From Patescibacteria group bacterium (GTDB taxonomy: Bacteria > Patescibacteriota > Patescibacteriia > PEXW01): a stretch of 64,000 bases of DNA. The notes under the pieces were generated by a model. It was not told where the DNA came from and did no database searches. It was given only the letters and a program-made list of their open reading frames with translations. Location of the stretch: the NCBI GenBank assembly GCA_038063455.1, contig JBBTVB010000001.1, forward strand, positions 13,719-77,718, in the 5' to 3' direction. Shown here piece by piece: positions 28,172 to 64,000 of the stretch. A program made the position numbers and the translations under genes. Within the stretch, counting starts at the first letter, position 1. Each line of letters opens with the position of its first letter.

Positions 28172-28395
28172 GCTATTAGCCTAGGGGATTTTGCTAACAA
28201 CGACAAACGCTCAGTCACCACGTTGTGGCCCCAATGGGTCGCCAGCTTTGATTCCTTCAATACGGGGTCCCCGCGAATGTGGTGCGCACCCTGAGCTTGT
28301 CGAAGGGGAGCACGCGTTCGTGGGGTAAAGCGAGGATTCGCACGCAACCCGAAGAACCACCTTCGGTGGGGCGAAGGGTGAAGAGCGAAACGAGC

Positions 28396-28619
28396 TGGCG
28401 GACCCGAAGGGAATCGTCACTGCGTGACCGGCTTGCTCCCGATGGGTCGCAAGCTTCGATTCCCTTCAGACAAACGATCAGTCACCACGTTATGGTGCCT
28501 GTTCGTTTGGCGGACCCGAAGGGAATCGTCACTGCGTGACCGGCTTGCTCCCGATGGGTCGCAAGCTTCGATTCCCTTCAGACAAACGATCAGTCACCAC
28601 GTTATGGTGCCTGTTCGTT
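28396..28619 (-). repeat. perfect tandem repeat, 2 x 112 bp; each unit ends (minus strand) in the last 20 nt of tRNA-Asp including CCA
   Basis: Units 28396-28507 and 28508-28619 are identical by my reading. Internal helix GAAGGGAATCG/CGATTCCCTTC plus smaller hairpins. Confidence 0.9.
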
Positions 28620-28728
28620 TGGCGGACCCGAAGGGAATCGAACCCTCGATCTTCTCCGTGACCCGCGCACCACACGCACTAGGCTCGTGTGTGCGGGGCA
28701 GGCAGGGAGACGGTGCAGCGCTGTCGGC
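28620..28728 (-). repeat. partial tRNA-Asp copy (anticodon stem to CCA) with an insertion of about 40 nt in the anticodon loop
   Basis: CACCGTCTCCCTG + CCTGCCCCGCACACACGAGCCTAGTGCGTGTGGTGCGCGG + GTCACGGAGAAGATCGAGGGTTCGATTCCCTTCGGGTCCGCCA. No acceptor or D-arm 5' part. Confidence 0.85.
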
Positions 28729-28804
28729 TGGCGGACCCGAAGGGAATCGAACCCTCGATCTTCTCCGTGACAGGGAGACGTGTTAACCGCTACACTACGG
28801 GTCC
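28729..28804 (-). tRNA. tRNA-Asp (anticodon GUC), CCA encoded
   Basis: GGACCCG-TA-GTGT-AGCGGTTA-ACAC-G-TCTCC-CTGTCAC-GGAGA-AGATC-GAGGG-TTCGATT-CCCTT-CGGGTCC-G-CCA folds as a canonical cloverleaf. Confidence 0.92.
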
Positions 28805-28877
28805 AACCGACAACGCTGCAAACTCTTTTGACGTGCTCGCCCCGTACCATCCGAGCACCAGCGAGGATTGGTGCGGG

Positions 28878-28900
28878 GTTAACCGCTACACTACGGGTCC
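28878..28900 (-). repeat. 23-nt copy of the tRNA-Asp 5' end (acceptor 5' strand plus D-arm)
   Basis: GGACCCGTAGTGTAGCGGTTAAC is identical to positions 1-23 of the gene 73 nt downstream (minus strand), then diverges. Confidence 0.85.
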
Positions 28901-28972
28901 AAAATTGAGCTAGCCGATTGTAACACGGCCTTTAGGACATGCCAAGGTCGCTAGTGTTGTATACTGTAACGT

Positions 28973-29326
28973 ATGCAACACATTCAAGGAAGCAAGGCAG
29001 AATGGACGCACAAGCCAGGGTATAGCAAAAAAGTCTTGGCGACTCCGGAAGTGCTAAAGGCGCCTGGCCTTTTGGTGCAGGAACTTTCGATTGCTCCAGG
29101 GCAAGTGGCCGCGAGCCACTACCACAAGCAGCAAGTGGAAATTTTTTACTTCCTCAATACCGCTGGGGAATTTTGGGTAAACGGCGAAAAGATCCCACTG
29201 GCAGCCGGGGATATTCTCATCGTCGAACCCAATGACAAACACGAAGTTCGGAATACCAGCAATGAGCCGTACCGGTATGTAGCGTTCAAGTATAATTGGG
29301 TAGACGACGATTACTTTGAGGGCTAA
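28973..29326 (+). CDS. cupin-domain protein
   Basis: Two cupin motifs (G..AASHYHKQQVEIFYF...G and GDILIVEPNDKHEVRN). TATACT lies 7 nt before the ATG. Confidence 0.8.
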   Translation: MQHIQGSKAEWTHKPGYSKKVLATPEVLKAPGLLVQELSIAPGQVAASHYHKQQVEIFYFLNTAGEFWVNGEKIPLAAGDILIVEPNDKHEVRNTSNEPYRYVAFKYNWVDDDYFEG

Positions 29327-30915
29327 GGTGCAATGCGTACCAGCTGGAAATCTGGCGAGCTCAGCAGTAGGGTGCCAGGGAATGGCACGATTCCGTTTTG
29401 AATTTTTTCTAAAACCAGACCGCTGGTTGGTTGCAGGCCTTCAATGTGCACCAGCGTGGTCCCGGGTTCATTGCCCAGGTAGTAGCGAATAGTTGGTTCA
29501 TGGTGCACGTAGATATTCTGTATGTACAAGGTTTCCGGCTGTTCGGCCTGGAGGATTTTTCGCGTGGCGGGTAAGAGCGGTTCGCCTCGCTGCAGCATAA
29601 GTTCAGCCCGTTGCCCCGCCAGTGCGAGCGTGCCCACCCAGAGGAGTACGGCCATGGGTATTACTCGCCAGAGTAGTCGGGATTTACGGTAGTGCGCAAC
29701 AATAGTTAGCGCCACAGTCAACAGGCCTATACCCAGGGCGGTAAGCCACCGTCCGCTCTGGCCATCCAGCCCAGCAACATAGGCTTGGGGCACCAGCCAA
29801 TGGGTCAGGCCGTCATCGGGCACCATGCTCGGCAGCCGCCGCACGAATGCGACCACGCCCCACCCAATGAGCGCCACGGTCGTCCAGCGCAACGGCCAGG
29901 CAAACCAGCGCGTGAGCCACATTCCCATGACGAGTGCAAGAATCGGGTAGAGGGGTAGGAGATACCATGAGCTTTTGGTTGCGTTCACCGAGAGCAGGAT
30001 GATTCCGCTGGCGAGGTATATTAGGAAGAAGGTTAGCAGTTGGTCGCGTTTTTTTAAGGCCCGGCCGATTGCCCAGACGCTGGCTGGCAGGGCAAAGGCG
30101 GCAAAGGGGAAGAAGCGCTGAATAAAAACTTTCCAGTACCAGCCTGGTCCGGCCGAGAAGCCGTACAAGTTTGTTGAAGATCGTTCCACTACATCGTTGC
30201 TAATAGTGGTTTGTATAAATGTAAAGCCCCGAAGCAGCAACTGACTCACGATCCAGGGCGCGATAATTATTAGCCCTACACTAATGGACTGTAACCAAAT
30301 TTTTTTTGAGTATGTATTAAAGCCTCGTGTAAAAATGAGGTGGAGCAAGATTGGGATGCCGGCAAATGCAATGGCCGTAAATTTTGTAATAAAACCTAGT
30401 CCCAGCGCAGCCGCGACTAAGAGTAACCAGCGCGGCTTTGACCAACTCTTCCAGTAGGCCCACAGGCTAAGGACCGTAAAGAAGGTTAGCAACCCATCAG
30501 TCTCGCCAGTGCGGAAGGCGTGGCCAAAAAGGTATTTTCCCGAAAGAAAAACCATCACAGTCAACCAGATCGTTGAATGCTTTTTACTCATCTGCCATGC
30601 CCACAGTCCTATTAGTAACGTGGTCAGCGTGCCGGCAAGTGCAGACCAGAAGCGAATGGAGAACTCGTTTTCACCAAGCACGGCAGTTGCCACACCGCCC
30701 AACCAAAAACGCAGGGGCGGTTTCCAATAGTACGGCTCGTGGTTCCAGGTGAGCTCCAGCCAGTTACCGGATTCGACCATTTCGTGCGTCACTTGCGCGT
30801 GGATCGCCTCATCCCATTTTTCCAGCGGGTTGGTGCCCAAGCTCCAGAAGAACATGACGCTGGCAAGCACGGCAAGAGCAATGAACGACAGGAGTACGGA
30901 ACGAGGCGGAATCAT
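29323..30915 (-). CDS. ArnT/PMT-family (GT39/GT83-like) membrane glycosyltransferase
   Basis: Polytopic protein with N-terminal EKWDEAIHAQVTHEMVESGNW...YYWKPPLRFW typical of this family. Confidence 0.85.
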   Translation of the reverse strand: MIPPRSVLLSFIALAVLASVMFFWSLGTNPLEKWDEAIHAQVTHEMVESGNWLELTWNHEPYYWKPPLRFWLGGVATAVLGENEFSIRFWSALAGTLTTLLIGLWAWQMSKKHSTIWLTVMVFLSGKYLFGHAFRTGETDGLLTFFTVLSLWAYWKSWSKPRWLLLVAAALGLGFITKFTAIAFAGIPILLHLIFTRGFNTYSKKIWLQSISVGLIIIAPWIVSQLLLRGFTFIQTTISNDVVERSSTNLYGFSAGPGWYWKVFIQRFFPFAAFALPASVWAIGRALKKRDQLLTFFLIYLASGIILLSVNATKSSWYLLPLYPILALVMGMWLTRWFAWPLRWTTVALIGWGVVAFVRRLPSMVPDDGLTHWLVPQAYVAGLDGQSGRWLTALGIGLLTVALTIVAHYRKSRLLWRVIPMAVLLWVGTLALAGQRAELMLQRGEPLLPATRKILQAEQPETLYIQNIYVHHEPTIRYYLGNEPGTTLVHIEGLQPTSGLVLEKIQNGIVPFPGTLLLSSPDFQLVRIAP

Positions 30916-32316: not shown

Positions 32317-32586
32317 TTACTTGCTTTCCAGGGTGTCTTTCAGGATGGTACGGAGGGCGATTTTACCTTTCGTGGTTTTGAAGTACGCCTCGCGCCGTCG
32401 GGCTTCTGGAGCAGTTAGGAAGCCTTCAAAGAAGATGAGTTTGAATGGACGACGGTTTGCCGTCGAAATATTCTGGCCGGCGTTGTGTGCTTTTAGGCGT
32501 TTCTCAAGGTCTCCCGTGGAACCGATGTAGAGTTTTCGATCCTTGAGGCTTTGGAGCGCGTAGACGTAATGAAAGTCCGTAATCAT
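32317..32586 (-). CDS. GIY-YIG nuclease superfamily protein
   Basis: YVYALQS...KLYIGSTGDLEKRLKAHNAG. Confidence 0.85.
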   Translation of the reverse strand: MITDFHYVYALQSLKDRKLYIGSTGDLEKRLKAHNAGQNISTANRRPFKLIFFEGFLTAPEARRREAYFKTTKGKIALRTILKDTLESK

Positions 32587-32908: not shown

Positions 32909-33312
32909 TGGTGGAGATGAGGGGTCTTGCACCCCTGTCTAGAATGCGGCGGGCAGGTGGTCTACAGGTGTAGGGCGTTCACGGGTGTTTCGATTGTGCC
33001 GCATGGAGCGCCCAAGCCCGGCAGAATCTAGTGGAAGTAATTTTCGGTTGCGTTGTTACCACCCCCGCGCAACCTACGCCTGGAATATAACACTCGCGAT
33101 TCCCGCGCCAGGTCGCGGGGCGAATGGGCTATCGGTTTTTAAGCGAACGCCGGAGCAAAGCTGGGAACTGTGAACGCGTTAGCGAACGCAGTCTTCACCT
33201 TGCTGACAATGCTATTGGCAGTTGTCGAGTTGTCCAGCAGTTTTACGCCGTGCCGAACGCGGGCGACCCGCACACCAACCGTAATGCAATCTATCAACTT
33301 CTGAACATCCCC
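32909..33312 (-). ncRNA. ssrA: tmRNA (ssrA)
   Basis: 5' GGGGATG pairs with 3' CATCTCC-A-CCA (G3:U70). T-arm-like GGGGTGCAAGACCCC. Internal tag frame 33219..33139 reads ANSIVSKVKTAFANAFTVPSFAPAFA*. Adjacent to smpB. Confidence 0.85.
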
Positions 33313-51536: not shown

Positions 51537-51597
51537 CATTGGCCTTGACCGGCTGCCATATGTACAGTACAGTGAGGTTCTTGCATTTGCTCTTTCG

Positions 51598-51678
51598 GGT
51601 GTGTAGTTCAGGGGTAGAACGCTGACAAACGATTGGTCCGGAGTCAGAGGTCGCTGGTTCGAAACCGGCCACACCCAT
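51598..51678 (+). tRNA. aberrant tRNA-Arg(CCG)-like gene with a 16-nt anticodon loop (9 extra nt), no encoded CCA
   Basis: GGGTGTG-TA-GTTC-AGGGGTA-GAAC-G-CTGAC-[AAACGATTGGTCCGGA]-GTCAG-AGGTC-GCTGG-TTCGAAA-CCGGC-CACACCC-A. The 3' part of the loop (TCCGGA), the stem and the variable loop resemble tRNA-Arg(CCG). Confidence 0.55.
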
Positions 51679-59463: not shown

Positions 59464-61251
59464 ATGAAAATTGTTGAGATAAAAATTGATGGTTTTCGGG
59501 GTTTTAGTAATTTTTCGGTCACATCCGGTGATACCGGAGGATTTATAGTACTGGCCGGAAACAATGGCACAGGCAAATCGACTATTTTGGAAATTGCAGA
59601 GAGTTTAATTAATGGAAGAGCACATACAAATTTTAATGTTGAAGTACTTTCGGGCATTACAAAGGAAAAGACAGATTGGGAGGTTACTGTGGAGTTTAGC
59701 GATGATGATTTAGAATATCTTGCAAAATACTTGACCAGAACACAGCCCCAAACATTCTCAAATAGTTGGGAGTCTTTATTGCTATCTATGAAAAGTGATT
59801 TAAAAAATGAACATGGCAAACATTTTTCTACTATTTCTCTCAGCGTAAATAAGAATTTTCCGATTGGCAGGTCCGGGTTGACCCTTAACTATAATGGCAA
59901 TCCGAATGTTGTGCCACAGTGGTATTCAACTCTTGGCAGCTCTAATTTTTTTGCTGTTTATCTTAGATCCCACCAACAAATACAAGAAACTAACTTAACG
60001 ATTTTTAACGCTTCGGAAGATCAAAACACTCTTTCTCAAGTCGTAGGAGGCGAGAAAAGTCTTAGCCAACGTACTGCAATAGCCACAATTCAATTAGGAC
60101 AGATTCTCTCGCAACTAACTCTTAGTGAGATTTGGAATAATTATCGGTCAAATGGTGGTTCGTTTACGACAGTAAAAGAAGTCCTCGACCCTATAAATGA
60201 AGTCATTGAACCACTTGAGATGACATTCCAGGACGAGGGCTTACAAACGGGAAATATATTTTTTGTAATCCGAAACAAGAAAAGTGGTAAACAGTACTCA
60301 TTAAACTACGCGAGTTCTGGCGAAAGACACGTAATTGCTTTGGCGGCCACACTAATACAGTGGCAAAGACAAAAATTTAAAAGCATTATCTTAATTGATG
60401 AACCAGAAATTCATTTACACCCTGATTATATCTCGAAACTTGGCGCCTTGTTCTCAAAAGTTTTTGGTCCAGAAAATAGTTATACATGTATGGTAGCCAC
60501 ACATTCACCAGACTTTATTGCAACAAATCCAGACAGGGTCTTTCAAATTTCCGTAGACTCAAAGACAATTGTCCCAGTAGAAAACCTTCCGCAAAGAGTT
60601 GCTCTATTTGAAGCCCTAGGAAAAAAGTTCGATCTCTCATTTCTTATTAAAAGGATTGTTTGGGTTGAAGGTGTAACATCACCGAGTAAAGATCACCTAC
60701 AAGATCATGAGGTTTATCAATACTTGATTGACCCGAATAAAGTCACGACAGTGTTTTTACCAGCTGGTGTAGACCCCTCAAGAGACGGAAGTAAGGAAGG
60801 CGTACGCGCGGCAATGAAAGGTTCGAGCATCTTTTTAGAGTTTATTAAGTCAGTTTCAAGTATTGATAGTGGGCTAAATATTATAGCCTTGGTTGATAAA
60901 GATGATGATAAAGGTGCAATAAAGTCGCTGACAATAAAATATACACCTTTTACAAATTTAGAGAATATATTTTTATTGGATTTTCAAGCAGTAGCTGAAG
61001 CTGCGAGTTTAGAAGGAAAGAAACAATATACGCCCATTGAAATATCAAAAATTCTTGATAATATTACTGGTCAAACTTCAACTCAAACTATGAGCGTAAA
61101 TGGCAAGAAAGTGTTTGATAGTTTATATGGCACACTATTTACAATCCCAGATATTTCGCATAAAGAATTCCAAGAGCGTATCTTAAAAAAGATTTTAGTT
61201 GAAAGACTGCCACAAGAAGTTAAAGATTTGTTTGCTGAACTACGCGCATAA
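59464..61251 (+). CDS. ABC/SMC-like ATPase fused to a Toprim/DUF4435-like domain (OLD / PARIS-merge / AbiL-like defence candidate)
   Basis: Walker A GNNGTGKST, signature-like SSGER, Walker B IILIDEPEIHLHP, and THSPDF. C-terminal VWVEGVTS...ALVDKDDD (Toprim Glu and DxD). Strongly AT-rich by eye. Confidence 0.8.
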   Translation: MKIVEIKIDGFRGFSNFSVTSGDTGGFIVLAGNNGTGKSTILEIAESLINGRAHTNFNVEVLSGITKEKTDWEVTVEFSDDDLEYLAKYLTRTQPQTFSNSWESLLLSMKSDLKNEHGKHFSTISLSVNKNFPIGRSGLTLNYNGNPNVVPQWYSTLGSSNFFAVYLRSHQQIQETNLTIFNASEDQNTLSQVVGGEKSLSQRTAIATIQLGQILSQLTLSEIWNNYRSNGGSFTTVKEVLDPINEVIEPLEMTFQDEGLQTGNIFFVIRNKKSGKQYSLNYASSGERHVIALAATLIQWQRQKFKSIILIDEPEIHLHPDYISKLGALFSKVFGPENSYTCMVATHSPDFIATNPDRVFQISVDSKTIVPVENLPQRVALFEALGKKFDLSFLIKRIVWVEGVTSPSKDHLQDHEVYQYLIDPNKVTTVFLPAGVDPSRDGSKEGVRAAMKGSSIFLEFIKSVSSIDSGLNIIALVDKDDDKGAIKSLTIKYTPFTNLENIFLLDFQAVAEAASLEGKKQYTPIEISKILDNITGQTSTQTMSVNGKKVFDSLYGTLFTIPDISHKEFQERILKKILVERLPQEVKDLFAELRA

Positions 61252-61278
61252 AAATTTTGGCATCCCTCATCCTGCCTG

Positions 61279-61345
61279 GTAGACTAGGGGCATGACCCTT
61301 CTGCCCCGCACCAGTCGTCCCGCGGGGCGGGACTCCGGTGCGGGA
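61279..61345 (+). repeat. GTAG-type REP (61279-61307) overlapping a CACCAGTCG...CTCCGGTG palindrome (61304-61345)
   Basis: GTAGACTAGGGGCATGACCCTTCTGCCCC, then CCCCGCACCAGTCGTCCCGCGGGGCGGGACTCCGGTGCGGG. Relatives at 37898 and at 32607/32871. Confidence 0.65.
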
Positions 61346-61438
61346 TGTTGCGCCGCGAATTAGGGGTAATTTTTAATGCGGCACTCCACCATCTTGGGCT
61401 GTTTTGTTGCATTCATGCTAGTGCGATAGACTGTAGCC

Positions 61439-64000
61439 ATGACTCTTTTGCCATCCTTAAATGAAGCTCAAAAACAGGCGGTTACGCATGCGGCCGGGCC
61501 GCTATTGATAGTTGCTGGCGCGGGGACGGGCAAAACTACGGTCGTCACCCAGCGCATTGCCTGGCTTATTGCTGAGCAGAAGATTAAGCCGGACCATATC
61601 CTGGCCCTCACCTTTACGGACAAGGCTGCCGGGGAGCTGGAAGAGCGCGTAGACAAGTTGCTGCCCATGGGCTATGTGGACTTGTGGGTAAGCACGTTTC
61701 ACAGTTTTTGCGAGCGCATTTTGCGGGACCACGCCCTAGATATTGGCCTCACACCGGACTTCACTTTGTTGGACGAAACCGACCAGGCAATTTTGATGCG
61801 CGAGAATTTGGAGAAGTTTGAGCTCAACTACTACCGGCCGCTCGGGAATCCAACGAAGTTTGTTTCGAGTCTGATTAAACATTTCTCGCGCTGCAAAGAT
61901 GAGGCTATTCGGCCGGAAGAGTACATTGAATTTGCAAAGAATTTACAATTGGATCAGGACGCGGACCCCGCAATGCACAAAGGTAAAAAGCGTGTGCGGG
62001 GTGCGACTCCAGACAAAGCTGAAAGCGGGGAAGAGCAAGACGCACTGGAGTCGCAACGCATCAACGAAATTGCGAATGCCTACCATACCTACCAACAGCT
62101 CCTTTTTGAAAAAGGTGCGTTAGACTTTGGCGATCTTATTACCCAAGCTTTGTACCTGTTCCAACAGCGGCCGAAGATTTTAGAGCGCTACCGCAAGCAG
62201 TTTGAGTACATTCTGGTAGACGAGTTCCAAGACACCAACTGGGCGCAGTATGAATTGGTGAAGCTACTCGCCAGCCCGCAGAACAATTTGACCGTGGTGG
62301 GGGATGACGACCAGAGCATTTACAAGTTCCGCGGGGCCAGCGTGGCCAATATTCTGGCATTCAAGGCGGACTTTCCAAAAGCCGCGGAGGTTGTGCTCAC
62401 GGAAAACTATCGCTCCACGCAAAATATTTTGGACCTGGCGTACGCATTTATCCAGGCGAATAATCCGAACCGGCTGGAGGTGCAATTGGGGAGCAGTAAA
62501 GCTGTAAAGCCAGAGAGCCGTAAGGGCAAGAAGGGCTCTAAAGCTTTACCGCTCTATAGCTCTACGGCTATCAGTAAAAAACTTGTTGCTCAAGAGAAAG
62601 GCGCTGGAACCATAGAGTATTCCGTCGCACCGATCCTGGAACAAGAAGCGACGGGCGTAGTGGAAAAAATTATCGAGCTCAAGAAAAAGAAAGGCACGTC
62701 GTACAACGACTTTGCCATTCTGGTGCGCGCTAATGATTCGGCCCAACCGTTCTTGCAGCGTCTACGCGCCGCGGACGTTCCGTTCCAGTTTGTGGCCACG
62801 GCGGGCCTATACCGCCAGCCGATTGTGCTGGACATTCTCAACTACCTCAAGCTGCTGGATAACTTCCACGAGAGTGCCAGCCTGTACCGCATTCTCACTT
62901 TGCCTTCGCTCGGCATTCCGCTGCAGGATGTAATGACCATGATGGCCACGGCGCGACGGGAGACGAAGTCGTTGTTTGAAGTGTCTAAGAATATCCGGGC
63001 TTTACCTGGTATGAAGCCGGAAACCATTACCGCCGTGGAAAAATTGCATGGCTGGCTGGAGGCGCACGGACAACTGGCCCGCACGCAGCCGGTGGGGGAA
63101 GTCGCCCTCAAATTTTTGGAAGACTCGGGTTTGATGAAGCAGCTTACCAGCTCTACGGATGCCGACCATTTGGAAGTGGTCAACTACATGAACCAGCTCT
63201 TCCAGGTGTTTCAAGGTTTCCAAACGCGGCACGACGATCCGACCGTGACGAATTTCTTGCACGAGTTGGCGTTTGCCCAGGACGCTGGGGACAGCGGCAG
63301 TCTGCGGCCGCCGGAGTGGGAGCAGGGGCCGGAGGCGGTAAAGGTAATGACCATTCACAGTGCCAAAGGCTTGGAGTTTCCGTACGTGTTTATTGCGAAC
63401 CTCGTTGATAAACGTTTCCCAACAATAGAGCGGCGCGACGCCATTGCACTGCCAGACGCCCTAGTGCGCGAAAAGCTGCCTGAAGGGGACTGGCACTTGC
63501 AGGAAGAGCGGCGGCTCATGTACGTAGCAATTACCCGCGCCAAGCAAGGCGTGTTCTTCACGGCGGCCGAGGACTATGGCGGTGCACGCAAGAAAAAACC
63601 TTCGCGGTTTATTGAAGAGCTTGGACTCAAAGCCAAACCCTTCAAGCTCAAAGGGGGATTGCTCGATAGGCCGAAAGCTCCGGCTCGTGAAGAGAACGAT
63701 GCGGATGTACTCCGCAAAGCCCTGCCGCCGTATTTCAGCTTCACGCAGCTGAAGGCGTTTGAAAAATGCCCAAAGCAGTATGCGTTCGCGCACTTGCTCA
63801 AAATTCCCGTGCCTGGCCAGGCGACGTTGAGTTTTGGCCAGACCGTTCATAACACTTTGCTCAACTTCTACAAGCTGGCGCGGGAGCGGGGGAGTGCGGG
63901 GCAAGCCGATTTGTTCAGGAAGAAAGATACGGTCACTGTTGGCCCACTGGTGACGTGGTCAGATTTAATCACGATTTACCAAGCCGCGTGGATAGACCAG
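61439..64000 (+). CDS. UvrD/PcrA/AddA-type DNA helicase with the start of a C-terminal PD-(D/E)XK nuclease-like region (3' partial)
   Basis: Missing from the ORF track because it has no stop in the window. I translated AGAGTGKTT (Walker A), VGDDDQSIYKFRGA, TIHSAKGLEF, MYVAITRAK, and later FTQLKAFEKCPKQYAF. The frame is open through 64000. Confidence 0.9.
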   Translation, partial: MTLLPSLNEAQKQAVTHAAGPLLIVAGAGTGKTTVVTQRIAWLIAEQKIKPDHILALTFTDKAAGELEERVDKLLPMGYVDLWVSTFHSFCERILRDHALDIGLTPDFTLLDETDQAILMRENLEKFELNYYRPLGNPTKFVSSLIKHFSRCKDEAIRPEEYIEFAKNLQLDQDADPAMHKGKKRVRGATPDKAESGEEQDALESQRINEIANAYHTYQQLLFEKGALDFGDLITQALYLFQQRPKILERYRKQFEYILVDEFQDTNWAQYELVKLLASPQNNLTVVGDDDQSIYKFRGASVANILAFKADFPKAAEVVLTENYRSTQNILDLAYAFIQANNPNRLEVQLGSSKAVKPESRKGKKGSKALPLYSSTAISKKLVAQEKGAGTIEYSVAPILEQEATGVVEKIIELKKKKGTSYNDFAILVRANDSAQPFLQRLRAADVPFQFVATAGLYRQPIVLDILNYLKLLDNFHESASLYRILTLPSLGIPLQDVMTMMATARRETKSLFEVSKNIRALPGMKPETITAVEKLHGWLEAHGQLARTQPVGEVALKFLEDSGLMKQLTSSTDADHLEVVNYMNQLFQVFQGFQTRHDDPTVTNFLHELAFAQDAGDSGSLRPPEWEQGPEAVKVMTIHSAKGLEFPYVFIANLVDKRFPTIERRDAIALPDALVREKLPEGDWHLQEERRLMYVAITRAKQGVFFTAAEDYGGARKKKPSRFIEELGLKAKPFKLKGGLLDRPKAPAREENDADVLRKALPPYFSFTQLKAFEKCPKQYAFAHLLKIPVPGQATLSFGQTVHNTLLNFYKLARERGSAGQADLFRKKDTVTVGPLVTWSDLITIYQAAWIDQ

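What the first reader, a model, noticed from the sequence alone, without database searches (positions are those of the whole stretch)
28172..28905. tRNA-Asp gene embedded in nested partial copies of itself plus a perfect 2x112-bp repeat whose units end in the tRNA 3' terminus
The order on the minus strand is as follows. First comes a 23-nt copy of tRNA-Asp positions 1-23 (28900-28878), followed by 73 nt of hairpin-rich unique sequence. Next is the intact 76-nt tRNA-Asp(GUC) with encoded CCA (28804-28729). Next is a copy running from the anticodon stem to CCA, in which the anticodon loop is interrupted by a GC-rich hairpin of about 40 nt (28728-28620). Last come two units identical at all 112 positions by my reading (28619-28508 and 28507-28396). 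Each unit ends in GATTCCCTTCGGGTCCGCCA. Each can form an 11-bp helix (GAAGGGAATCG/CGATTCCCTTC) enclosing two hairpins, plus a helix that pairs across the unit junction (CAAACGA/TCGTTTG). A rearranged, diverged copy of unit pieces lies at 28206-28262, just upstream of the yfhO-like gene. Four direct copies of a tRNA 3' end at 112/112/109-bp spacing look like att remnants of serial integrations. Against that reading, the intervening DNA is far too short to be an element and no integrase is in the window. In addition, the sequence right after the 5' half copy (CCCGCACCA) is nearly complementary to the sequence right before the interrupted 3' part (TGGTGCGCGGG), an arrangement reminiscent of split or intron-bearing tRNAs. 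A third reading is an array of co-transcribed, CCA-ended tRNA-derived small RNAs. Sequence alone cannot decide between these.
Basis: partly seen in the sequence, partly recalled or inferred. Interest (0 to 1): 0.72.

Follow-up and report, generated by a model that had tools for sequence, protein, structure and literature searches.

The report
Nested tRNA-Asp gene with tRNA-linked repeats
In this Patescibacteria (CPR) genome the working tRNA-Asp gene sits inside the hairpin-interrupted remains of an older copy of itself. It is followed by repeat units that end in the tRNA's 3' tail, and the same layout recurs in at least six related lineages, so it is a real, shared and partly exchanged structure, not an integration scar.

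Summary
The 112-nt units are identical, and the 20-nt tRNA 3' end occurs four times where 0.01 is expected.

New evidence changes the reading:
- The pieces around the intact tRNA-Asp form one "outer" tRNA-Asp gene behind the normal promoter.
- That gene is split by a 43-nt hairpin (H1, at 22/23), by an insert carrying the complete inner tRNA clamped by a 16-bp leader/trailer helix (X, after position 28, with a 4-nt overlap), and by a 41-nt hairpin (H2, at 34/35).
- Removing the inserts restores the tRNA exactly.
- The same nested design occurs in six other Kerfeldbacteria-like lineages, with different tRNA-Asp alleles. The hairpins show compensatory changes.
- Its distribution conflicts with the phylogeny of the neighbouring yfhO gene.
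- No integrase, group I intron core or bulge-helix-bulge motif was found.

The 112-nt units match the definition of E. coli tRNA-linked repeats (TLRs, as at tyrT/rttR). A related unit family is conserved in three relatives.

Best reading: a co-transcribed composite locus built by nested cassette insertion and unequal recombination. The repeated pieces are kept alike by gene conversion, and the locus is exchanged between lineages. Mechanism and function remain inferred.

The parts
28917..28945 (-). Promoter-like site TTGGCA-17-TACAAT (with TG), the only one upstream of the whole array
   Evidence: It lies in front of the 5' fragment. In the simple loci L004 and L006 a similar TTGGCA...TACAAT sequence lies at a similar distance in front of the intact tRNA.
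28879..28900 (-). Outer tRNA-Asp gene, positions 1-22 (the '5' fragment')
   Evidence: Exact copy of the inner tRNA.
28836..28878 (-). H1: 43-nt hairpin insert at tRNA position 22/23 (CCCCGCACC...GGTACGGGG plus CGAG)
   Evidence: Homologous hairpins sit at the same site in L008, L013, L026, L009 and L084. 94.7% of cells are paired and 5 pairs show compensatory changes.
28830..28835 (-). Outer gene, positions 23-28 (CACGTC)
   Evidence: Conserved as GCACGT(C) after H1 in all modules.
28805..28829 (-). Left part of insert X: 9 nt (AAAAGAGTT) plus the 16-nt leader arm TGCAGCGTTGTCGGTT
   Evidence: The leader pairs with the trailer, duplex dG -30.0 kcal/mol. Eight tRNAs at simple loci give -3 to -13.
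28729..28804 (-). Inner, intact tRNA-Asp(GUC) with encoded CCA. Presumed to be the only functional tRNA here.
   Evidence: ARAGORN and Rfam at 70.5 bits. Identical to the tRNA-Asp of L002, L004, L006 and L010.
28713..28728 (-). Right part of insert X: trailer arm GCCGACAGCGCTGCA plus C
   Evidence: Complementary to the leader. 14 of 15 identical to L008.
28703..28712 (-). Outer gene, positions 25-34 (CGTCTCCCTG). It overlaps the 23-28 piece by CGTC, giving a 4-nt direct duplication around X.
28662..28702 (-). H2: 41-nt hairpin insert inside the anticodon, at 34/35 (CCTGCCCCGCAC...GGTGCGCGGG)
   Evidence: Homologous inserts at the same site in L008, L013, L026 and L082. In L009 and L084 this hairpin holds a complete tRNA. 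7 pairs show compensatory changes.
28620..28661 (-). Outer gene, positions 35-76 including CCA
   Evidence: Exact copy. Together with the following hairpin it is 89-91% identical to the tRNA 3' part plus trailer of L004 and L006.
28508..28619 (-). TLR-type unit 1 (112 nt). It contains the trailer hairpin, an inverted T-arm segment GAAGGGAATCGAA, two small hairpins, and tRNA positions 56-76.
28396..28507 (-). TLR-type unit 2, identical to unit 1
28308..28395 (-). 88-nt element directly after the last CCA. It contains the only terminator-like hairpin on this strand (28377-28360).
   Evidence: The 109-nt blast segment that contains it (with 21 nt of tRNA 3' end) is 97% identical to L002, although YfhO is only 56% identical. 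It is absent from the closer relatives L004 and L006.
28202..28262 (-). Degenerate unit piece (GAAGGAATCAAAGCTGGCGACCCATTGGGG) fused to the 3' half of the ancestral trailer hairpin
   Evidence: (families D3 and D4) and the alignment with L002, L004 and L006.

Best explanation
The region is one tRNA-Asp transcription unit that has grown at the DNA level into a "Russian doll".

Shown by the sequence:
- Behind the normal promoter lies an older ("outer") tRNA-Asp gene. Its sequence is still exact, but it is cut into pieces.
- The cuts are made by two related 41-43-nt hairpins (H1 at 22/23, H2 at 34/35) and by an insert (X, after position 28, flanked by a 4-nt duplication).
- X carries the complete, working ("inner") tRNA-Asp.
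- The inner tRNA is clamped by a 16-bp leader/trailer helix that continues its acceptor stem.
- Downstream lie two identical 112-nt units and one degenerate unit. By their sequence features they are tRNA-linked repeats (TLRs). Each consists of the tRNA's trailer hairpin, a helix formed between an inverted copy of the T arm and a copy of tRNA positions 56-76, and a free acceptor-3'-CCA tail.

Inferred:
- The leader/trailer clamp keeps the inner tRNA folding apart from the identical outer pieces. It also offers a double-strand RNase entry site.
- Everything is transcribed from the promoter at 28945-28917. RNase P and the 3'-end processing enzymes release the tRNA, with the units as by-products.
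- The perfect 2 x 112 duplication is a recent unequal crossover between the 21-nt tRNA-end repeats.
- The long outer pieces stay identical to the inner gene through gene conversion.
- The outer pieces also serve as homology arms. Through them the module can be copied into a plain tRNA-Asp gene of another lineage, or lost again by recombination between the direct repeats.
For: Anatomy:
- Parts and coordinates were checked by script, and outer pieces minus inserts equal the inner tRNA exactly. The same holds for L026, which has four inserts.
- The single promoter precedes the 5' fragment. A similar promoter precedes the intact tRNA in the simple loci L004 and L006.

Recurrence of the nested design:
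- L008, L013, L026 = L034, L009, L084 = L086 and L082.
- These loci carry four different tRNA-Asp alleles.
- The inner tRNA sits either in X (window, L008, L013, L026; presumably L082) or in the loop of H2 (L009, L084).

Structure:
- The leader/trailer duplex is -13 to -34 kcal/mol for five nested tRNAs, against -3 to -13 for eight tRNAs at simple loci. Four unrelated sequences all pair.
- H1: 94.7% of cells paired, 5 compensatory pairs, 0 of 500 shuffles as high, slid controls 35-50% paired.
- H2: 94.7% paired, 7 compensatory pairs, 0 of 500 shuffles.

Gene conversion versus decay:
- The 22-nt and 42-nt outer pieces have no substitutions in the window, L008, L013 and L026.
- The 10-nt piece has 1-2 substitutions in L008 and L013.

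Exchange between lineages:
- The window and L008 share H1 + spacer + leader at 89% and the trailer at 14 of 15. Their YfhO proteins are 42% identical, and H2, the promoter and the trailer hairpin are 56-61% identical.
- L009 and L084 (49% YfhO) share an almost identical H2::tRNA cassette. L009's sister L013 (74%) lacks it.
- L026 is nested while its sister L010 (71%) is simple and carries another tRNA allele.

TLR reading:
- At E. coli tyrT-tyrV I verified a 178-nt x 3.1 repeat in which each unit ends in the 19-nt tRNA-Tyr 3' end.
- The family definition is in PMC8144298.
- A related unit is conserved in L007, L008 and L083: 32 pairs, 7 compensatory. Its closing strand GGAnnnG tracks each genome's T loop.

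The same layout at a protein gene:
- A 5' fragment, an H-like hairpin, a spacer and then the intact gene occur at the UvrD helicase gene in this window.
Against: - No enzyme or mechanism for inserting X or the hairpins has been identified. X has no terminal inverted repeats at its exact ends, and the 3-4-nt overlap could be microhomology.
- The close relatives L004, L006 and L002 have plain tRNA genes, so the module is dispensable.
- High conservation of H1 + X between the window and L008 could reflect selection on an RNA rather than transfer.
- Compensatory changes in hairpins fit an RNA function as well as DNA palindrome maintenance.
- Only 4-5 sequences per hairpin alignment and 3 for the unit family were available.
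- The yfhO tree is a single-gene neighbour-joining tree without support values.
- Transcription, processing and copy number are untested.
Confidence: 0.5

Rival explanations
1. Functional RNA operon. The outer pieces, hairpins and 112-nt units are selected products. Examples would be CCA-ended small RNAs whose free GGGUCCGCCA tail or inverted T-arm segment pairs with pre-tRNA-Asp or its fragments, or that titrate a processing or charging factor. The architecture would then be kept by selection on these RNAs rather than by gene conversion and exchange.
For: - Stems are conserved and loops vary in H1 between the window and L008.
- H1, H2 and the unit family show compensatory changes.
- The unit folds very stably, z = -6.8, as does the whole array, z = -8.8.
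- The module persists in streamlined genomes despite flanking direct repeats that should delete it.
- Some E. coli TLRs are transcribed, processed and bind Hfq and CsrA (PMC8144298).
Against: - The module is absent from the closest relatives.
- Its layout varies widely: X versus H2 as host of the tRNA, extra inserts at 42/43 and 56/57, and 0-2 units.
- The outer pieces are degenerate or mismatched in L008, L013, L082 and L084.
- The window unit and the L007/L008/L083 unit share topology but little sequence.
- No Rfam family matches.
- Most E. coli TLRs have no known function.
Confidence: 0.2
2. Integration scars. The partial tRNA copies are attL/attR remnants of integrative elements that targeted tRNA-Asp with tyrosine integrases and later decayed almost completely. 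The 112-nt unit would be a decayed cis-mobilizable remnant that was duplicated.
For: - Two copy boundaries lie in the anticodon loop (34/35) and the T loop (55/56), and both copies run to the 3' end. Displaced tRNA fragments from integrations look like this (PMC4383910, abstract; the sublocation classes are from my own knowledge of Williams 2002).
- The element right after the CCA is shared at 97% with the more distant L002 but not with L004 or L006.
Against: - No integrase lies in the about 15 kb around the locus or in the examined flanks of the related loci.
- Intervals between copies are 66-112 nt.
- 5' fragments upstream of the intact gene and the nested, non-overlapping order of the pieces are not what integration produces.
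- A leader and a trailer that came from different elements would not be complementary in four different sequence versions.
- Scans of viral contigs found only chance matches.
Confidence: 0.12
3. A spliced multi-intron or split tRNA. H1, X and H2 are introns removed from the outer precursor, giving a second tRNA-Asp, with the inner tRNA as an intron-encoded product.
For: - Removing the inserts gives a perfect tRNA in the window and in L026.
- Each insert is a self-contained hairpin.
- Patescibacteria often carry group I introns in tRNA-Asp at 35/36 (PMC13011429).
- A second tRNA in this window has a 16-nt anticodon loop.
Against: - The inserts are 41-43 nt, far below the size of a group I core, and no RF00028 match appears even at E = 10.
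- The site is 34/35, preceded by G rather than U.
- I could not draw a bulge-helix-bulge motif at the H2 junctions. The consensus fold simply stacks H2 on the anticodon stem.
- The outer pieces in L008, L013, L082 and L084 would give defective tRNAs.
Confidence: 0.05
4. Assembly artefact. Repeats or strain mixtures were mis-joined at shared tRNA k-mers.
For: The perfect 112-nt repeat is shorter than typical read pairs but longer than many k values, and the Logan contig breaks there.
Against: - Homologous nested modules appear in independent assemblies from different projects. L084 = L086 and L026 = L034, and L008 and L051 share the first 252 nt of the module.
- The contig break is what a real repeat would cause.
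Confidence: 0.03

Closest known systems
tRNA-linked repeats (TLRs) of E. coli, e.g. the 178-bp x 3.1 repeat after tyrT-tyrV (rttR/rtT RNA, tpr)
   Same: - Both lie directly downstream of a tRNA gene on the same strand, in short tandem arrays.
- Each unit ends in the last about 20 nt of the upstream tRNA, including CCA (19 nt in E. coli, 21 nt here).
- Each unit also holds an upstream segment complementary to the tRNA-derived end: GGGGAAGGAT in E. coli, GAAGGGAATCG here.
Verified; the definition is in PMC8144298.
   Different: - No sequence similarity, and no Rfam match to any family.
- The host is a CPR bacterium.
- Units are 112 nt and identical to each other, against 178 nt at 95% in E. coli.
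- The E. coli loci have no upstream 5' fragments, hairpin-interrupted copies or nested tRNA.
Displaced tRNA gene fragments left by integrative elements (genomic islands at tDNA; Islander, PMC4383910)
   Same: Direct repeats of the tRNA 3' part begin in the anticodon loop or T loop, next to an intact gene.
   Different: There is no integrase and no island. A 5' fragment lies upstream. The pieces are nested around an insert carrying a whole tRNA. The junction hairpins are conserved.
[quoted passage not shown]
   Same: Same phylum, same tRNA, and an interruption inside the anticodon.
   Different: The site is 34/35. The insert is 41 nt with no catalytic core. An intact replacement tRNA is supplied instead of splicing.
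Archaeal multi-intron, split and permuted tRNA genes (Thermoproteales, Nanoarchaeota; PMC3218864 and PMC4033280, listed)
   Same: Several short hairpin-like interruptions sit at non-canonical positions of one tRNA gene (22/23, 28/29, 34/35, and 42/43 and 56/57 in relatives). The inserts are related to each other, as if copied from site to site.
   Different: This is a bacterium. No bulge-helix-bulge motif is recognisable. The outer gene is often defective. A complete tRNA lies inside one insert.

Membership tests
tRNA-linked repeats (TLR) | Located immediately downstream of a tRNA (or rRNA) gene in the same operon | tested here: met
   The units at 28619-28396 follow the tRNA-Asp copies on the same strand. 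There is one promoter-like site upstream and one terminator-like site downstream.
tRNA-linked repeats (TLR) | The 3'-terminal 18-19 bp of each unit are identical to the 3' end of the upstream tRNA | tested here: met
   21 nt (CGATTCCCTTCGGGTCCGCCA) are identical in both units.
tRNA-linked repeats (TLR) | One to five units per locus | tested here: met
   Two identical units plus one degenerate piece.
tRNA-linked repeats (TLR) | Transcribed with the operon and processed into discrete RNAs | not testable with these tools
   No transcriptome data are available. Only promoter and terminator pattern scans were possible.
Integrase att scars at tRNA genes | Integrase gene and island DNA lie between the regenerated gene and the displaced fragment | tested here: not met
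   Intervals are 66-112 nt. Pfam scans of neighbouring genes here and at related loci show no recombinase (gene tables).
Integrase att scars at tRNA genes | The displaced fragment is the 3' part, starting at a loop crossover site | tested here: inconclusive
   This holds for the 35-76 and 56-76 copies. The 1-22, 23-28 and 25-34 pieces and their nested order do not fit.
Group I intron in tRNA | Catalytic core detectable (RF00028), about 200 nt or more | tested here: not met
   No match at E up to 10 in the window region, or at E up to 0.1 in seven related loci. The inserts are 41-43 nt.
Group I intron in tRNA | The 5' exon ends in U and the intron ends in G. In Patescibacteria tRNA-Asp the site is 35/36. 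| tested here: not met
   H2 follows G34. The site is 34/35 (PMC13011429).
Archaeal-type spliced or split tRNA | Bulge-helix-bulge motif at the exon-intron junctions | tested here: not met
   By inspection and from the consensus fold, H2 stacks directly on the anticodon stem without the 3-4-3 motif. This is a weak test and no dedicated search tool was used.
Archaeal-type spliced or split tRNA | The joined exons give a functional tRNA in all members | tested here: not met
   The joined exons are exact in the window and L026. They are defective or mismatched in L008, L013, L082 and L084.
Archaeal-type spliced or split tRNA | Splicing endonuclease encoded in the genome | not tested
   Only a 64-kb window is available.

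The most novel reading that the evidence does not exclude
The module is a new kind of selfish insertion in an essential gene: a small hairpin-bounded cassette that lands inside tRNA-Asp genes and carries its own complete tRNA-Asp instead of splicing. The split halves of the old gene would serve as homology arms, so the cassette spreads between CPR lineages by DNA uptake and recombination. Breaks made by the small GIY-YIG nucleases encoded next to tRNA-Asp in some relatives might help. Repeated hits would give the Russian-doll nesting. The same hairpin family may do something similar at protein genes, as the UvrD 5' duplication suggests.
Probability: 0.22. Interest if true: 0.85.

Novelty: new variant of a known kind. 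Interest (0 to 1): 0.68.

Why it matters
- The library search turned up interrupted bacterial tRNA genes only as group I intron hosts or as integration scars. This locus shows a third state: a gene broken at several non-canonical sites and rescued by a full copy nested inside it. The design recurs in at least seven CPR lineages.
- It extends tRNA-linked repeats from E. coli to a distant phylum. There the unit shows covariation with the T loop, which gives a comparative handle on a family whose function has been open since 1978.
- It bears on tRNA annotation in CPR genomes. Fragments and nested genes can confuse tRNA finders and break assemblies.
- It bears on how single-copy essential genes tolerate invasion.
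- If the mobile-cassette reading holds, it would be a new strategy for a selfish element and evidence of gene exchange among CPR bacteria.

Tried and rejected
- Phage collection (blastn): only ordinary tRNA-Asp matches.
- Viral contig scans with the 5'-fragment/H1 junction, the H2 junction and a tRNA-plus-unit pattern: 4, 3 and 0 hits. The hits show no nested module; the hits also lack any tRNA.
- Metagenome scan with the junction pattern: 59 hits, of which only 3 were real modules (L026, L034, L051). The rest were coincidental.
- Rfam at relaxed thresholds: nothing beyond tRNA and tmRNA. The microRNA "hits" are artefacts of the repeat.
- H hairpins as an abundant REP- or MITE-like family: not supported. 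I counted only about 4 CCCCGCAC sites in 64 kb against a rough expectation of about 2.5. One clear extra member exists at 61303, and a few more in relatives.
- Tandem-array-plus-two-deletions origin. It would explain the leader/trailer complementarity. I rejected it because it does not explain why the outer pieces add up to exactly one tRNA with a 3-4-nt overlap in every lineage.
It is not conserved as such. It follows from H1 and H2 being homologous palindromes.
- The 227 nt between the last CCA and yfhO as a structured leader: z = -1.5, so not notably structured.
- Literature search for nested or fragmented bacterial tRNA genes: no description of this arrangement in the library.
Full report
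**1.

All coordinates are on the minus strand.
- ARAGORN and Rfam find one intact tRNA-Asp(GUC) with encoded CCA at 28804-28729.
- A 25-nt exact copy of its start lies at 28902-28878.
- Positions 25-34 and 35-76 are copied at 28712-28703 and 28661-28620, around a 41-nt insert.
- Tandem Repeats Finder gives a 112-nt period, 2.2 copies, 100% identity, and the two units are identical.
- The 20-nt tRNA 3' end occurs four times where 0.01 is expected.
- One unit folds into the junction-spanning hairpin plus a closing helix around two hairpins. Energy is -56.9 kcal/mol, z = -6.8.
- The whole 526-nt stretch folds with z = -8.8.

**2. Organism and setting**

- The downstream YfhO-family protein is 100% identical to one annotated from a Patescibacteria-group MAG. 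Its relatives are Kerfeldbacteria-like genomes.
- The neighbours are ordinary genes: NHL-repeat protein, YfhO, cupin, PMT_2 glycosyltransferase, L20, IF3, a small GIY-YIG protein, tmRNA, SmpB and ArgRS. None is a recombinase.
- tRNA-Asp is next to yfhO in nearly all relatives, so the locus is syntenic.

**3. What the pieces are**

In the plain relatives L004 and L006 the order is promoter, tRNA-Asp, a trailer hairpin, about 30 nt, then yfhO.

In the window a similar promoter (TTGGCA-17-TACAAT, 28945-28917) sits in front of the 5' fragment instead. Read in order, the pieces are:
- tRNA 1-22
- a 43-nt hairpin, H1
- tRNA 23-28
- 9 nt plus a 16-nt leader, the complete tRNA, and a 15-nt trailer (together insert X)
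- tRNA 25-34
- a 41-nt hairpin, H2
- tRNA 35-76
- the ancestral trailer hairpin

Taking out H1, X (which is flanked by the 4-nt duplication CGTC) and H2 gives exactly the tRNA. So the flanking "partial copies" are one older tRNA-Asp gene, split three times. The working tRNA lies inside one of the inserts.

**4. The design recurs**

- The same order is found in L008, L013, L026 = L034 and L082. In each, H1 is at 22/23, GCACGT(C) follows it, and H2 starts with CCTGCCCCG at 34/35.
- In L009 and L084/L086 the complete tRNA sits in the loop of H2 instead.
- L026 has a further 50-nt double hairpin in the T loop (56/57), yet its outer pieces still add up to the exact tRNA.
- L082 has an extra 24-nt hairpin at 42/43.
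- These loci carry four different tRNA-Asp alleles.
- In the window, L008, L013 and L026 the long outer pieces match that genome's own inner tRNA exactly. The short 25-34 piece has one or two substitutions in L008 and L013. This pattern fits gene conversion acting on the longer repeats.
- In L009, L082 and L084 the outer and inner genes differ, and the outer could not make a tRNA.
- Independent assemblies give the same modules. A separate assembly of the window organism breaks exactly at the unit end.

**5. Structure is conserved**

- The leader and trailer of nested tRNAs pair strongly: -30.0, -25.7, -34.3, -12.9 and -33.7 kcal/mol, in four unrelated sequence versions. Eight tRNAs at plain loci give -3 to -13. 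The helix continues the acceptor stem and includes part of the CCA.
- H1 (5 sequences) and H2 (4 sequences) each have 94.7% of cells paired, with 5 and 7 pairs changed on both sides. No shuffle in 500 reaches these values, and slid controls are 34-56% paired.
- Sample sizes are small. Such patterns fit either an RNA constraint or maintenance of DNA palindromes.

**6. Distribution conflicts with descent**

On YfhO identities:
- The window is closest to the plain loci L006 (67%), L004 (61%) and L002 (56%), and is only 42% identical to L008.
- Yet H1 + spacer + leader is 89% identical and the trailer 14 of 15 identical to L008. H2 (56%), the promoter (61%) and the trailer hairpin (59%, against 82% to L006) are not.
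- L009 and L084 (49%) share a nearly identical H2::tRNA cassette that L009's sister L013 (74%) lacks.
- Nested L026 is sister (71%) to plain L010, which has another allele.

Either parts of the module move between lineages, or they are under unusually strong constraint with many losses. Loss is easy, because each insert is bracketed by direct repeats of 25 and 43 nt.

**7. The 112-nt units**

- I checked the E. coli K-12 tyrT-tyrV locus. It has a 178-nt x 3.1 repeat at 95% identity. Each unit ends in the 19-nt tRNA-Tyr 3' end and contains an upstream complement of it. It is annotated rttR/tpr.
- PMC8144298 defines these tRNA-linked repeats: 22 in ten loci, with 18-19 bp identical to the upstream tRNA or rRNA 3' end. 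Some are transcribed, processed and bound by Hfq and CsrA, and the function is otherwise unknown.
- The window units meet every sequence criterion.
- L007, L008 and L083 have a related unit (GGAnnnGAAGGGCAG ... CTGCCCAGGAC plus tRNA 56-76). It has 32 consensus pairs, 7 of them compensatory. Its closing strand is always the reverse complement of that genome's own T loop.
- The two perfect copies in the window are most simply a recent unequal crossover.
- The "rearranged" copy at 28202-28262 has the same order as in L002.
- The 88 nt after the last CCA lie in a 109-nt segment that is 97% identical to L002, and hold the only terminator-like hairpin on this strand.

**8. Readings that fail**

- Integrase scars: there is no integrase or island, 5' fragments lie upstream, the order is nested, and leader and trailer are complementary.
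- Spliced introns: there is no group I core, the site and size differ from the Patescibacteria 35/36 introns (PMC13011429), no bulge-helix-bulge motif appears, and the outer genes of several relatives are defective.
- Phage or viral origin: only chance hits.

**9. A wider clue**

- An H-like hairpin (CCCCGCACC...GGTGCGGG) at 61303-61345 directly follows a diverged duplicate of the promoter and first 17 nt of the UvrD helicase gene. The intact gene starts about 95 nt further on. The local alignment scores 38, against 17.1 +/- 3.2 (maximum 31) for shuffles.
- So the layout "5' fragment, hairpin, intact gene" is not confined to the tRNA.
- Small GIY-YIG nuclease genes lie directly downstream of tRNA-Asp in L012 and L082, and between IF3 and tmRNA in the window.
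- Whether they drive these rearrangements is unknown.

**10. Verdict**

- The finding is real and more structured than first described. It is a nested tRNA-Asp gene plus tRNA-linked repeats, shared and apparently exchanged among CPR lineages.
- The anatomy, its recurrence and the conservation of the hairpins are shown.
- Co-transcription, the clamp's role in processing, gene conversion and horizontal spread are inferred.
- The inserting mechanism and any function of the by-products are unknown.

Noticed in passing
window 51597-51677 (+): The second tRNA in the window (ARAGORN calls it Val-AAC, 81 nt; Rfam 52.5 bits) has a 16-nt anticodon loop instead of 7 (AAACGAUUGGUCCGGA between CUGAC and GUCAG). 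The only canonical 7-nt loop inside it would read GUCCGGA, i.e. Arg-CCG, which would imply a 9-nt insertion. Its identity and processing are unclear.
   Followed up: partly
window 61254-61460 (+): The promoter and first 17 nt of the UvrD-helicase CDS (ATG at 61439) are duplicated about 140 nt upstream (score 38, against a maximum of 31 in 500 shuffles). The upstream copy runs directly into a 40-nt hairpin of the same CCCCGCACC...GGTGCGGG type as H1 and H2.
   Followed up: partly
window 59464-61251 (+) and 61439-end (+): An AAA_15/AAA_21 ATPase (595 aa) is followed by a UvrD-type helicase with a C-terminal PD-(D/E)XK hit. This gene pair is reminiscent of Gabija-like defence systems. I did not examine it further.
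   Followed up: no
window 32317-32586 (-); L012 3368-3637 (-); L082 297-542 (+): Small stand-alone GIY-YIG nuclease genes (81-89 aa). In the window the gene lies between IF3 and tmRNA. In L012 and L082 it lies about 120-180 nt downstream of tRNA-Asp, and L010 appears by eye to hold a degraded copy at the same place. L002 has one near SpoU.
   Followed up: partly
window 28308-28395 (-) and L002 3481-3568: An 88-nt element right after the CCA lies in a 109-nt segment that is 97% identical between genomes whose YfhO proteins are 56% identical. It is absent from the closer relatives L004 and L006. It contains a terminator-like hairpin with possible alternative pairings.
   Followed up: partly
L026 7316-7390 and L009 3731-3804: The inner tRNA of L026 lacks the final A of CCA (GCC followed by C), while its broken outer copy keeps CCA. 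The inner tRNA of L009 encodes no CCA. CCA encoding therefore varies among these nested genes.
   Followed up: no
window 28973-30915: A cupin gene and a PMT_2 glycosyltransferase gene lie between L20 and tRNA-Asp. In L002 and L003, L20 is followed directly by tRNA-Asp. The position and orientation of the tRNA module relative to yfhO also differ among relatives (upstream, downstream or divergent).
   Followed up: partly
window 32909-33312 (-): A standard one-piece tmRNA (Rfam 79.7 bits) with SmpB next to it. The tmRNA / IF3-L35-L20 / yfhO / tRNA-Asp neighbourhood is conserved in several relatives (L008, L009, L083, L084).
   Followed up: no
L009 2628-2660 and L026 7471-7520: The double hairpin inserted in the T loop of L026's outer gene (TCCCGCC...GGCGGGATCCCGC...GCGGGG) resembles a double hairpin in an unrelated intergenic stretch of L009. 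This suggests a second small family of GC-rich hairpins.
   Followed up: no
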